From: a virus
Virus record (IMG/VR): IMGVR_UViG_3300027881_000011
Coordinates: 3,783 to 67,782 of that record
DNA: 64,000 nt
Strand: one strand, 5' to 3'
Shown here: positions 51,353-51,453 of the stretch, piece by piece
Numbering within the stretch: position 1 is the first letter of the stretch
How the letters are laid out: each line of letters starts with the position of its first letter
The notes under the pieces: generated by a model
What the model was told of the DNA's origin: nothing
The model's input: the letters and a program-made list of their open reading frames with translations, nothing else
The model's database searches: none
Made by a program: the position numbers and the translations under genes

Positions 51353-51453
51353 TGGAGCCGCTGATAAGAATCGAACTTATGATAACCGTGTGGCGTCCGG
51401 CTCGTTACCGAGCTTAAATGTTGCTCACGGTGTGCCCCCTCGGGCACAGCGGC
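51353..51453 (-). ncRNA. Permuted Y RNA in tRNA topology with 3' CCA (unit F)
   Basis: GCCGCTG/CAGCGGC-T-CCA; T-arm ATAAG-TTCGATT-CTTAT; internal AACAT..GCTCG-GTAA-CGAGCCGGA..CACGG-TTATC. Confidence 0.75.

What the first reader, a model, noticed from the sequence alone, without database searches (positions are those of the whole stretch)
51353..51453. Y RNA re-permuted into true tRNA topology, with a 3' CCA and the Ro site in place of the anticodon arm
Seen (minus strand): GCCGCTG | TGCCC-GAGG-GGGCA | CA CCGTG AGC AACATTTAA GCTCG-GTAA-CGAGC CGGA CGC CA CACGG TTATC | ATAAG-TTCGATT-CTTAT | CAGCGGC T CCA. The two halves of the shared Ro helix occur in reversed order and are capped by a GNRA loop. 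The free ends form a 7-bp acceptor stem with U73 and encoded CCA. Established: YrlA has the opposite permutation, with a closed acceptor and ends at the Ro stem; G1-C72, C2-G71 and U73 are bacterial tRNA-Gly identity elements. Inference: this may be a processable, possibly aminoacylatable Y RNA that carries Ro60 to EF-Tu, the ribosome or tRNA-binding enzymes.
Basis: partly seen in the sequence, partly recalled or inferred. Interest (0 to 1): 0.9.

Follow-up and report, generated by a model that had tools for sequence, protein, structure and literature searches.

The report
Phage Y RNA with true tRNA ends
A phage that carries the RNA-binding protein Ro60 also encodes a small RNA built like a real tRNA, with an open acceptor stem and a CCA tail, whose anticodon arm carries the Ro60 docking motif; related phages share this design, which seems not to have been described.

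Summary
Window 51453..51353 (minus strand) folds as described: a 7-bp acceptor stem, U73, encoded CCA, a canonical T arm and a minimal D hairpin. Its central stem carries the array's Ro60 motif with the two strands in reversed order, capped by GUAA.

It is not a chance fold. A covariance model finds it in 12 phage or metagenome loci, where 98.6% of cells pair and 18 of 25 pairs change on both sides (0 of 500 shuffles as high). An independent set of 16 elements from other phage Ro60 loci gives 93.9% and 23 of 25. All 38 model hits in 72 further Ro60 loci lie on the Ro60 strand.

The element sits in a roughly 800-nt promoter-driven array of ordinary-orientation Y RNA units upstream of a phage Ro60 gene. 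It is best read as a YrlA-type Y RNA with un-permuted tRNA connectivity, probably matured by host tRNA-processing enzymes.

The Gly-type acceptor end (G1-C72, C2-G71, U73, CCA) is real and conserved in this clade. It is not conserved in the wider class, and there is no C35/C36. Aminoacylation therefore remains speculation. No RNA data were available.

I rate it a new variant of a known kind. The b7a-tRNA paper and two reviews could not be read.

The parts
51353..51453 (-). The whole element (101 nt): a tRNA-connectivity Y RNA, unit F of the array
   Evidence: Sequence; cloverleaf minimum-energy fold; covariance-model hits R1 at 44.1 bits, E about 2e-8 to 5e-9; covariation
51447..51453 (-). Acceptor stem 5' strand, GCCGCUG (positions 1-7)
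   Evidence: Pairs 7/7 with 51357-51363. All 7 pairs show double-sided changes across 12 homologues
51434..51445 (-). Minimal D hairpin, GCCC-GAGG-GGGC
   Evidence: The stem covaries (3 of 4 pairs). Variant contig X7 has GCGG/CCGC with a 6-nt loop. By my reading, loops of all 13 group members contain GG
51426..51430 (-). Central (anticodon-position) stem 5' strand, CCGUG
   Evidence: Pairs with 51386-51390. 3 of 5 pairs have double-sided changes in A5 and 5 of 5 in A8
51414..51422 (-). A-rich strand AACAUUUAA, equivalent to the 3' strand motif (AACAU) of the ordinary Y units
   Evidence: Compared with units G, D, C, B and A and with the aligned rows
51400..51413 (-). Capping hairpin GCUCG-GUAA-CGAGC, equivalent to the terminal stem of ordinary units but closed by a GNRA loop
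   Evidence: Helix 4 covaries (2 of 5 pairs in A5, 5 of 5 in A8). Variant X7 has the closing pair G-C changed to A-U and the loop GUAA changed to GCGA
51394..51401 (-). GCCGGACG, the Ro60-site motif (variant of GNCGAAN0-1G)
   Evidence: The motif is defined in Chen 2014. The ordinary units G, B and A carry GCCGGAUG
51386..51390 (-). Central stem 3' strand, CACGG
51381..51385 (-). UUAUC, the variable-loop position. The same motif follows the upper stem of ordinary units and of standard YrlAs
   Evidence: L012, L016. Present in 26 of 28 aligned rows; it was fixed by the search pattern for the 12 rows of A5
51364..51380 (-). T arm AUAAG-UUCGAUU-CUUAU
   Evidence: Same T loop as the phage tRNA-Tyr. 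The stem covaries
51357..51363 (-). Acceptor stem 3' strand, CAGCGGC
51353..51356 (-). Discriminator U73 plus encoded CCA, followed by an AUUUUU trailer
   Evidence: UCCA in 9 of 12 and GCCA in 1 of 12 group members. The phage tRNA-Tyr ends A-CCA-AAUUC
51531..51558 (-). Sigma-70-like promoter TTGACT-16-TATCAT in front of the array
   Evidence: 10 of 12 matches. A consensus match only
51458..51525 (-). Unit G, a short ordinary-orientation Y unit that ends 8 nt before the element's G1
   Evidence: Fold; sequence. The AGGCUAA-type spacer is conserved in relatives
50744..51196 (-). Units D, C, B and A, ordinary-orientation Y units. C and A have a T arm plus a closed acceptor-like hairpin. A is a weak Rfam YrlA hit
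   Evidence: Folds. RF02553 at 36.4 bits against a gathering score of 69, E = 1.6e-5
50700..50740 (-). Ro60 leader hairpin AUGCUCG-UGAUGGA-CGAGCCG, a second capped copy of the motif just upstream of the ribosome-binding site
   Evidence: Invariant in 8 of 8 loci; fold
49075..50700 (-). Ro60/Rsr gene (541 aa; TROVE plus Ro60 vWA domains)
   Evidence: Pfam PF05731 at 2.3e-40 and PF25045 at 7e-58

Best explanation
The element is a genuine structured RNA. It is a Ro60-associated Y RNA of the YrlA (tRNA-mimic) lineage that has ordinary tRNA connectivity instead of YrlA's circularly permuted connectivity. Its 5' and 3' ends form a 7-bp acceptor stem with a discriminator and an encoded CCA. The D hairpin and T arm form the elbow. 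The stem in the anticodon position carries the Ro60 docking module (the A-rich strand, a short helix and the GCCG(G)A strand), closed by a tetraloop instead of by the RNA's termini.

Inferred mechanism:
- It is transcribed from the promoter at 51558-51531 as part of a polycistronic array (units G, F, E, D, C, B, A, then Ro60 mRNA).
- Host RNase P cuts at G1, which also frees unit G with a short 3' tail.
- The 3' end is trimmed back to the encoded CCA, as for the phage's own tRNA.
- The mature roughly 101-nt RNA binds phage Ro60 through the capped module at the far end of the L shape and presents a tRNA-like elbow and acceptor end to a tRNA-binding partner.
- Relative to YrlA the 3D design is the same. 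What changes is where the chain ends lie, so that biogenesis and end protection are handed to the tRNA machinery.

Shown: the sequence, the fold, covariation, linkage to Ro60 on the same strand, and motif homology. Inferred: transcription, processing, Ro60 binding and the partner.
For: Structure:
- The minimum-energy cloverleaf has z = -3.7.
- Model R1, built without the window, finds the element at exactly 51353-51453 (44.1 bits).
- Across 12 members, 98.6% of cells pair and 18 of 25 pairs change on both sides, including all 7 acceptor pairs. No shuffle of 500 reaches this, and slid controls give 31-47%.
- An independent contig (X7) differs by compensatory changes in the D stem and the capping hairpin and keeps a GNRA loop.
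- An independent test set of 16 elements from other phage Ro60 loci gives 93.9% paired and 23 of 25 pairs changed on both sides, 0 of 500 shuffles.

Ro60 link:
- 8 of 13 group members lie within 1 kb of Ro60 on the same strand.
- In 72 further phage Ro60 loci all 38 R2 hits are on the Ro60 strand.
- By my reading, 16 of the 25 hits that are not ordinary tRNAs are clear members, in 15 loci.

Motif:
- GCCG(G)A follows the capped hairpin in every row that aligns there, 27 of 28. The L167 row is gapped in these columns. Several rows match GNCGAAN0-1G perfectly (motif from Chen 2014).
- A second capped copy in the Ro60 leader is invariant in 8 of 8 loci.

Permutation:
- Standard YrlAs align across the 3'-to-5' junction of the doubled element in 49 of 120 pairs (L008 8 of 15, L062 12 of 15).
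- L012, L016, L023 and others are ordinary YrlAs that share the GCCG...GGUUAUC plus T-arm block.

Processing precedent:
- M. smegmatis YrlA, which has a 7-bp acceptor, is cut by RNase P and gains CCA in vivo, and it stays bound to Rsr (Chen 2014, section 8).
- The phage's tRNA-Tyr has the same T loop and an encoded CCA.
Against: - There is no RNA evidence. No RNA run holds the stretch, so transcription, the ends and the CCA are unobserved.
- Ro60 binding to a capped, internal site has no experimental precedent that I found. The phiLo Yrl RNAs that bind phage Ro60 present CGAA in the ordinary stem formed by the 5' and 3' ends.
- The window's motif GCCGGACG deviates from GNCGAAN0-1G at one position, and its A-rich strand has 4 extra nt (UUAA) compared with the ordinary units.
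- The window copy has only a 4-nt D loop. Only 5 of 15 standard YrlAs align across its junction.
- L030 and L064 have no Ro60 in the DNA held.
- Alignments A5 and A8 were fitted to the model's structure, which inflates the pairing percentages.
- The members of A5 were found through a pattern that fixed GCCG, GGUUAUC and the T loop.
- Three representative cultured actinophages with Ro60 gave only weak hits of 18 bits or less.
Confidence: 0.68

Rival explanations
1. It is mainly a processing signal. The tRNA frame is kept so that RNase P and 3' tRNA-processing enzymes cut the polycistronic array into individual Y RNAs (tRNA punctuation). The excised element itself would have little function.
For: The element begins 8 nt after unit G's closing strand, and this short spacer is conserved in relatives. 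M. smegmatis YrlA and YrlB are 'processed from a single precursor' with RNase P involved. Unit E also looks like an acceptor plus T-arm structure without a Ro motif (first-reader note e1-6171045; I saw only the fold). Variants with an open terminal stem but no T arm exist (L003, L116:3695, L139:2648).
Against: A pure punctuation mark needs no Ro module, yet the capped hairpin, the GCCG(G)A strand and the spacing to UUAUC are conserved and covary in 28 sequences. In the wider class two or three such elements stand in tandem next to Ro60.
Confidence: 0.15
2. It is an aminoacylatable (glycine-accepting) Y RNA. GlyRS charges the Gly-type acceptor end, and the charged RNA links Ro60 to EF-Tu, the ribosome or another aminoacyl-tRNA user.
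For: G1-C72, C2-G71, U73 and CCA are invariant in the window's clade and in L062, while pairs 3-7 covary. G1-C72 is found in 11 of 12, C2-G71 in 10 of 12 and UCCA in 9 of 12. These are published bacterial Gly determinants, and the U73 plus G71 combination is 'found only in tRNAGly isoacceptors' (PMC9976931). A Gly acceptor-TpsiC minihelix can be charged (PMC9908026 Discussion). Chen 2014 raised possible aminoacylation of cleaved M. smegmatis YrlA.
Against: There is no C35/C36. Forced anticodons are inconsistent between homologues (Leu, Gly, Gln, Ala). C35 mutants lose 105-1500-fold. In the wider class the discriminator is A, C, G or U and CCA is encoded in only 4 of 16. The Gly-type end may simply be inherited from a tRNA-Gly ancestor. 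The phage encodes no synthetase-related function that I searched for; I searched only RtcB, the CCA-adding enzyme family and Band-7, and all three were absent.
Confidence: 0.1
3. It is a decoy or sponge for host tRNA-directed enzymes. Such enzymes include anticodon nucleases and other tRNA-cleaving defence or stress nucleases, modification enzymes and PNPase. The element would offer a tRNA body without a cleavable anticodon loop, tethered to Ro60.
For: Hughes et al. [quoted passage not shown] Phage phiLo Ro60 with its Yrl RNAs assembles with host PNPase (PMC12135203). The context is a phage carrying several diversified Y units.
Against: The evidence is entirely inferential. Nothing in the sequence identifies a target enzyme, and this reading does not by itself explain why the ends were moved to the acceptor stem.
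Confidence: 0.12
4. It is a decoding tRNA whose anticodon loop is interrupted by an intron-like insertion that is spliced out.
For: ARAGORN in intron mode of 5 members at default stringency and 4 of 5 at relaxed stringency. Rfam's tRNA model scores 12 wider-class elements above gathering threshold as tRNAs with 55-70-nt insertions.
Against: No anticodon is conserved between close homologues. The 'insertion' carries the conserved Ro motif and covaries as a helix. No bulge-helix-bulge or group I features were seen, and the phage encodes no RtcB ligase. Wang et al. note that splicing endonucleases of the archaeal or eukaryal type are not reported in bacteria.
Confidence: 0.02

Closest known systems
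YrlA (Rfam RF02553; Chen et al. 2014; crystal structure Wang et al. 2018)
   Same: Both are encoded next to Ro60 on the same strand. Both have a GNCGAA-type Ro motif on a bulged helix, a UUAUC/V region, a canonical T arm, a D arm and a tRNA-like L shape. Members with a full D arm (L008, L062) are collinear with standard YrlAs once the element is circularly rotated.
   Different: The connectivity differs. YrlA runs Ro 5' strand, V, T arm, closed acceptor hairpin, D arm, Ro 3' strand, with its ends at the Ro stem. The element runs acceptor 5', D, Ro 3' strand, capped hairpin, Ro 5' strand, V, T, acceptor 3', N73, CCA. RF02553 does not hit it. [quoted passage not shown]
RNase P-cleaved, CCA-tailed M. 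smegmatis YrlA (Chen et al. 2014, section 8)
   Same: It has a 7-bp acceptor stem, a free 5' end at position 1, a CCA 3' end and Ro60 association.
   Different: That RNA becomes two pieces (82 + 65 nt) held together by base pairing, with the Ro stem still open and CA added after transcription. The element is one chain with the Ro stem capped and CCA encoded.
D. radiodurans Yrn1
   Same: It is a Y RNA with the D-like element 5' of the T arm.
   Different: In Yrn1 the stem formed by the 5' and 3' ends is itself the Ro60 site and occupies the acceptor position, and the arm between D and T is a closed anticodon-like arm. In the element the terminal stem is a plain acceptor stem and the Ro site is on the closed arm.
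Canonical tRNA (RF00005), especially bacterial or phage tRNA-Gly
   Same: It has a 7-bp acceptor, G1-C72, C2-G71, U73, CCA, a T arm with UUCGAUU and a 5-nt variable loop. Wider-class relatives score above the tRNA gathering threshold.
   Different: There is no 7-nt anticodon loop and no conserved anticodon. About 35 nt of Ro module sit in its place. The D loop is cut to 4 nt in the window copy. Neither ARAGORN nor RF00005 calls it.
b7a-tRNA (Burroughs & Aravind 2016), known to me only from Wang et al.'s description
   Same: It is a predicted tRNA-like RNA in RNA-repair contexts that is 'occasionally ... encoded adjacent to Rsr'.
   Different: It is described as strongly resembling an authentic tRNA and as the partner of a Band-7 protein. 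This phage genome has no Band-7 gene, and the element carries a Ro motif. I could not read the original paper, so overlap cannot be excluded.

Membership tests
YrlA-type Y RNA (Chen 2014 criteria / Rfam RF02553) | Encoded within 4 kb of a Ro60 (TROVE) gene on the same strand | tested here: met
   The element's 3' end lies about 650 nt upstream of the Ro60 start, on the same strand. The same holds for 8 of 13 group members.
YrlA-type Y RNA (Chen 2014 criteria / Rfam RF02553) | GNCGAAN0-1G motif on the 5' strand of the Ro-binding helix | tested here: inconclusive
   The window has GCCGGACG, with G instead of A at position 5. The array's ordinary units G, B and A show the same deviation (GCCGGAUG). 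Relatives such as L062, L129, L159 and L152 match perfectly.
YrlA-type Y RNA (Chen 2014 criteria / Rfam RF02553) | Order T arm, closed acceptor-like hairpin, D arm, with the RNA ends at the Ro stem | tested here: not met
   The order is D, then T, with an open acceptor stem and a capped Ro helix.
YrlA-type Y RNA (Chen 2014 criteria / Rfam RF02553) | Reaches the RF02553 gathering score (69 bits) | tested here: not met
   RF02553 gives no match to the element at E <= 10. Only unit A is hit, at 36.4 bits.
YrlA-type Y RNA (Chen 2014 criteria / Rfam RF02553) | Bound by Ro60/Rsr | not testable with these tools
   Needs an EMSA or co-immunoprecipitation.
tRNA (RF00005) | 7-bp acceptor stem, discriminator, and a T arm with a U54-U55-C56-R57-A58 loop | tested here: met
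tRNA (RF00005) | 5-bp anticodon stem closing a 7-nt loop with a conserved anticodon | tested here: not met
   35 nt lie between the strands of the central stem. ARAGORN's intron-mode anticodons differ between homologues.
tRNA (RF00005) | Detected by a tRNA finder or reaches the RF00005 gathering score | tested here: not met
   ARAGORN of 5 without introns. RF00005 gives no hit for the window copy. By contrast, 12 elements of 120-136 nt in the wider class do pass.
Bacterial tRNA-Gly identity set | U73, G1-C72, C2-G71 | tested here: met
   Conserved in the clade. The identity set comes from PMC9976931.
Bacterial tRNA-Gly identity set | C35 and C36 in the anticodon | tested here: not met
   There is no anticodon loop.
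Yrn1-type Y RNA (D. radiodurans) | The Ro60-binding helix is formed by the RNA's own 5' and 3' ends | tested here: not met
   The terminal helix lacks the motif. The motif lies on the internal capped arm.
b7a-tRNA (Burroughs & Aravind 2016) | Association with a Band-7/SPFH gene | tested here: not met
   PF01145 was not found in the 67.8-kb phage record, and the control rang in 13 of 14 genomes.
b7a-tRNA (Burroughs & Aravind 2016) | Sequence and structure features as defined in the original paper | not tested
   The paper is not held.

The most novel reading that the evidence does not exclude
A widespread class of phage Y RNAs keeps true tRNA ends. In the window's clade these RNAs are matured to G1...UCCA and charged with glycine by host GlyRS. 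Ro60 would then be physically coupled to the aminoacyl-tRNA world (EF-Tu, the ribosomal A site, or other Gly-tRNA users). This form, a tRNA that acquired a Ro60 site on its anticodon arm, would also be the ancestor from which permuted YrlA arose by tandem duplication within Y RNA arrays.
Probability: 0.08. Interest if true: 0.92.

Novelty: new variant of a known kind. Interest (0 to 1): 0.7.

Why it matters
Bacterial Y RNAs are known as tRNA mimics, but the characterised ones lack tRNA ends. YrlA has a closed acceptor stem, and in Yrn1 the Ro stem takes the acceptor position. Their tRNA-side partner and their origin remain open questions (Chen 2014; Wang 2018).

A conserved, covarying, Ro60-linked form with an open acceptor stem, sometimes with an encoded Gly-type NCCA end, bears on these questions in four ways:
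1. It shows that the Ro60 module works, or at least is selected, as a capped internal arm. The invariant capped copy in the Ro60 leader supports this.
2. It offers a simpler route from tRNA to Y RNA than the dimeric-tRNA model, and a plausible step of permutation by duplication inside the tandem arrays.
3. It makes testable the ideas that Y RNAs can be matured by RNase P and the CCA machinery and might be charged.
4. It flags that many 120-136-nt 'tRNAs with insertions' next to phage Ro60 genes are probably Y RNAs, which matters for annotating phage genomes.

Tried and rejected
- Chance or artefact is rejected by covariation, by the independent variant contig and by strand-specific linkage to Ro60.
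- A decoding tRNA with an intron is rejected (see rivals).
- A misparse of two adjacent standard YrlA units is rejected. The Ro helix is closed by a tetraloop of 4 nt, the acceptor strands are the outermost elements, and no closed acceptor hairpin is present.
- The other tRNA-mimic families (skipping-rope, DUF2693-FD, salivarius-1; abstract and outline of the 2026 preprint) have no Ro60 link, and no Rfam hit was found.
- Expression: no RNA holder was listed for window 50700-51620. Only DNA contigs could be laid, so nothing can be said about transcripts or ends.
- Near-identical DNA was not found in cultured phages or in E. coli genomes.
- Cultured phages: Ro60 is present in 354 phage records. 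R2 gave only hits of 18 bits or less in 3 of 3 representatives tried (Cashline, Beuffert, Cali). A second protein query from L129 found no close cultured relative. The Agrobacterium, Sinorhizobium, Vibrio and Xanthomonas phages in the tallies were not examined.
- Cellular genomes: a TROVE search in 401 genomes of one class found only 4 with a match, too few to judge. In the 4 genomes behind L077, L078, L080 and L092, R2 found a full element only in the L078 contig. Prevalence in cellular genomes therefore remains open.
- MAFFT alone could not align the variable middle. I seeded the model from one subgroup instead.
- The doubled-sequence test is weak for the window copy itself (5 of 15).
- Papers not obtainable: Burroughs & Aravind 2016, Sim & Wolin 2018, Sim et al. 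2020 and Boccitto & Wolin 2019. Supplements of Chen 2014 (tables and figures of all predicted YrlAs, phage ones included) were closed. Any of these might already show this form.
- My statement that it seems undescribed rests on searches and on the passages read.
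Full report
**Where it is.** The window is 64 kb of a 67.8-kb phage record from IMG/VR that is estimated 96% complete. Around the finding lie phage replication and recombination genes: a YqaJ exonuclease, RecT, a helicase and a primase. A 541-aa Ro60/Rsr gene (TROVE plus Ro60-vWA domains) sits at 49075-50700 on the minus strand. Between a sigma-70-like promoter (TTGACT-16-TATCAT, 51558-51531) and the Ro60 start there are about 800 nt without a credible ORF.

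**The observation.** RNAfold gives the cloverleaf as the minimum-energy structure (-40.2 kcal/mol, z = -3.7).
- It has a 7-bp acceptor stem, a 4-bp D hairpin with loop GAGG, and a 5-6-bp central stem.
- An internal GCUCG-GUAA-CGAGC hairpin sits on the central stem.
- UUAUC and a 5-bp T stem with loop UUCGAUU follow, and the 3' end is U-CCA.
- ARAGORN and Rfam do not call it a tRNA. No Rfam family matches it even at E <= 10.

**The array and the shared Ro helix.** Reading and folding the untranslated stretch shows five ordinary units: G at 51525-51458, D at 51196-51116, C at 51110-51002, B at 50990-50898 and A at 50893-50744.
- Each unit closes with a terminal stem bracketed by CCG(G)A on the 5' side and AACA(U/C) on the 3' side, and each has (U)UAUC or UUACC after the upper stem.
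- Unit A is a weak Rfam YrlA hit (36.4 bits against a gathering score of 69). It has the YrlA order T arm, closed hairpin, D arm.
- Chen et al. 2014 define the presumptive Ro60 site as GNCGAAN0-1G near the 5' end (passages). The phage's version is GCCGGANG, and 4 of its 14 occurrences in the window lie in this array on this strand.
- In the element the same two strands appear in reverse order: AACAU(UUAA), then GCUCG, GUAA, CGAGC, then CGGA.
- The distance from CGGA to UUAUC is 10 nt, against 10-11 nt in the ordinary units.

**Conservation in close relatives.** Nine viral contigs encode a Ro60 that is 71-78% identical. The element is present upstream of Ro60 in L002, L004, L007 and L008/L009, and L003 has a form without a T arm.

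**Pattern scans.** I used a pattern that leaves the acceptor end unconstrained (GCCG, GGUUAUC and the T loop only).
- It found 54 metagenomic stretches. By my reading, 9 have the tRNA connectivity: L024, L027, L040, L045, L030, L062, L063, L064 and L074. Another 22 are standard YrlAs, and 23 are other matches or chance matches, mostly in coding sequence.
- In isolate and MAG genomes it found 17 stretches: 1 with the tRNA connectivity (L078), 5 standard YrlAs and 11 others.
- A narrower pattern in viral contigs returned 11 stretches: the 5 known copies, 2 standard YrlAs (L012, L016) and 4 ordinary phage tRNAs.

The V-region and T-arm block is thus shared with both YrlAs and real tRNAs.

**Covariation.**
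- A covariance model seeded from four sequences of one subgroup, not the window (A3, R1), finds the window element at exactly 51353-51453 (44.1 bits). It also finds the distant members at the boundaries I had set by hand. L064 was not found by the model and rests on my reading alone.
- On the 12-member alignment, 98.6% of cells pair. 18 of 25 pairs change on both sides, including all 7 acceptor pairs. No shuffle of 500 reaches these values, and sliding the partner by 1-3 columns gives 31-47% pairing.
- Contigs from other samples add an independent variant (X7). Mapped to the RNA strand, its D stem is GCGG/CCGC instead of GCCC/GGGC, and its D loop has 6 nt. The closing pair of the capping hairpin is A-U instead of G-C, and the loop is GCGA instead of GUAA, still GNRA. 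The 3' half is unchanged.
- Caveats: these alignments are fitted to the model, and the A5 members were recruited through a pattern.

**A wider class.** A profile of 14 Ro60 proteins (A7) finds more than 510 Ro60-encoding stretches in viral contigs. The best 80 were kept, and 72 of them were new, at 42-50% identity.
- Model R2 (from A5) gives 38 hits at E <= 0.1 in these 72 loci, all on the Ro60 strand.
- I examined 36 of the 38. The two L154 rows were left out because they duplicate the L149 rows.
- ARAGORN of the 36 ordinary tRNAs and none of the other 25.
- By my reading of those 25, 16 are clear members, in 15 loci: an acceptor stem paired at 6-7 of 7 positions (L124 and L149:2612 show only 5 of 7 in the model's register and were counted with Rfam's boundaries), a canonical T loop, and a capped hairpin followed by CCG(R)A or GUCGA. 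A further 3 are probable, 3 have the capped module but no T loop, 2 are unclear and 1 is a tRNA fragment.
- Sixteen hits from loci without ordinary-tRNA hits, none used to build the model, give 93.9% pairing and 23 of 25 pairs changed on both sides, including all 5 pairs of the capping hairpin (0 of 500 shuffles; slid controls 33-46%).
- In 27 of the 28 aligned rows the hairpin's 3' strand is followed by CG(A/G/C); the L167 row is gapped in these columns. Several rows match GNCGAAN0-1G perfectly. UUAUC follows the central stem in 26 of 28 rows.
- Rfam's tRNA model scores 12 such elements of 120-136 nt, in 10 of 18 loci scanned, above its gathering threshold as tRNAs with 55-70-nt insertions in the anticodon arm. 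They often stand two or three in tandem. RF02553 reaches threshold in none of these loci.

The window element belongs to this class, but with a D loop cut down to 4 nt, which is why RF00005 misses it.

**Relation to YrlA.** Wang et al. [quoted passage not shown] Here that connectivity is encoded directly.
- A local-alignment test of 15 standard YrlAs against each of 8 elements, doubled head to tail, shows the best alignment crossing the 3'-to-5' junction by more than 15 nt on each side in 49 of 120 pairs.
- The result is strongest where a full D arm is kept (L008 8 of 15, L062 12 of 15) and weak for the window copy (5 of 15).
- The first half of such alignments is guaranteed by how the sequences were found. 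The extension into the D arm is the informative part.
- L008's D arm is almost the same as that of the standard YrlA in L023.

**Ends and identity.**
- In the window's group, G1-C72 (11 of 12), C2-G71 (10 of 12), U73 plus CCA (9 of 12; 1 more has G-CCA) and an A/U-rich trailer are kept while acceptor pairs 3-7 covary.
- U73, G1-C72 and C2-G71 are published bacterial glycine determinants, together with C35 and C36 (PMC9976931, passage). A Gly minihelix can be charged, but loss of C35 costs 105-1500-fold (PMC9908026, passages).
- The element has no anticodon loop, and forced anticodons differ between homologues.
- In the wider set the discriminator is A, C, G or U, and CCA is encoded in 4 of 16.
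- The phage's own tRNA-Tyr has the same T loop and ends A-CCA-AAUUC, so an encoded CCA is this phage's normal tRNA style.
- The phage record encodes no RtcB, no CCA-adding enzyme family member and no Band-7 protein.

**A second capped site.** The hairpin AUGCUCG-UGAUGGA-CGAGCCG lies just upstream of the Ro60 ribosome-binding site. It is invariant in 8 of 8 loci whose Ro60 proteins are only 71-78% identical to the window's. It has no covariation, but its conservation suggests that the capped form of the motif is a functional unit, plausibly bound by Ro60.

**Interpretation.** I commit to the following reading. This is a Ro60-binding Y RNA of the YrlA lineage with tRNA-type ends, cut out of the array by host tRNA-processing enzymes.
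- The precedent is M. smegmatis YrlA, which is cut by RNase P, gains CCA in vivo and stays Rsr-bound (Chen 2014, section 8).
- The structure and the Ro60 linkage are shown. Transcription, processing and binding are inferred.
- The punctuation, decoy and charging readings are compatible add-ons, with lower odds.
- The tandem arrays of Y units suggest permutation by duplication as the link between the two connectivities. The direction of that change is not resolved here.

**Novelty and limits.** I found no description of this form in the library. I also found none in the passages read of Chen 2014, Wang 2018, the phiLo Ro60 paper, the jumbo-phage survey and Hughes 2020.
- I could not read Burroughs & Aravind 2016. 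According to Wang et al., its 'b7a-tRNA' strongly resembles an authentic tRNA and is occasionally found next to Rsr.
- I also could not read two reviews by Sim and Wolin, the review by Boccitto and Wolin, or the Chen 2014 supplements.
- No RNA data exist for this stretch.
- The host is unknown. The DNA holders laid are labelled seawater and marine sediment metagenomes.

Noticed in passing
window 50700-50740 (-); L002-L008, L005, L078 leaders: The hairpin AUGCUCG-UGAUGGA-CGAGCCG, just before the Ro60 Shine-Dalgarno, is invariant in 8 of 8 related loci while the flanks vary. It is a capped Ro-motif copy, which suggests that Ro60 regulates its own translation.
   Followed up: partly
L159:270-392, L105:1663-1791, L120:2245-2374, L149:2612-2738, L129:2659-2784, L124:2584-2697, L108:2575-2699: After UUAUC many wider-class elements carry a 3-bp hairpin with a 7-nt anticodon-like loop (CUGAUAA, CUUUUAA, CUUGAAA, CUUGUAA, AUGCAAA twice, AUUCGGA), in the position of YrlA's V arm.
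   Followed up: no
L003 about 3470-3620; L116:3695-3781; L139:2648-2750; L115:2835-2957: These variants have an open terminal stem and the capped Ro module but no T arm. It is replaced by a plain hairpin or is missing.
   Followed up: no
window 51200-51345 (-): Directly after the element's CCA-AUUUUUA comes an 8-bp hairpin, CACGUUGC-AGGGA-GCGACGUG. A strongly folding roughly 110-nt structure without a Ro motif follows (unit E; z = -3.4 for the whole stretch). The hairpin sequence recurs after the element in L002 and L004.
   Followed up: partly
window 62034-62119 (-): The phage-encoded tRNA-Tyr (GUA) has a long variable arm, the T loop UUCGAUU and an encoded CCA followed by AAUUC.
   Followed up: partly
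L168:5307-5890; L149:2479-2738; L105:1663-2017; L108:2575-2886; L159:270-528; L167:4787-5120: Two or three tRNA-connectivity elements stand in tandem next to Ro60. Rfam's tRNA model scores them above threshold as 120-136-nt 'tRNAs', so automatic annotation may mislabel them.
   Followed up: partly
window 51434-51445 (-) and homologues: The D loops of all 13 members of the window's group contain GG even when reduced to four nucleotides (GAGG, GUGG, UUGG). This suggests that the G18/G19 contact with the T loop is retained.
   Followed up: no
L062:29-675: In this metagenome contig the tRNA-connectivity element lies about 190 nt downstream of the Ro60 stop rather than upstream. It is followed by an ordinary-looking unit that starts with GGGCCGAAGC.
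   Followed up: no
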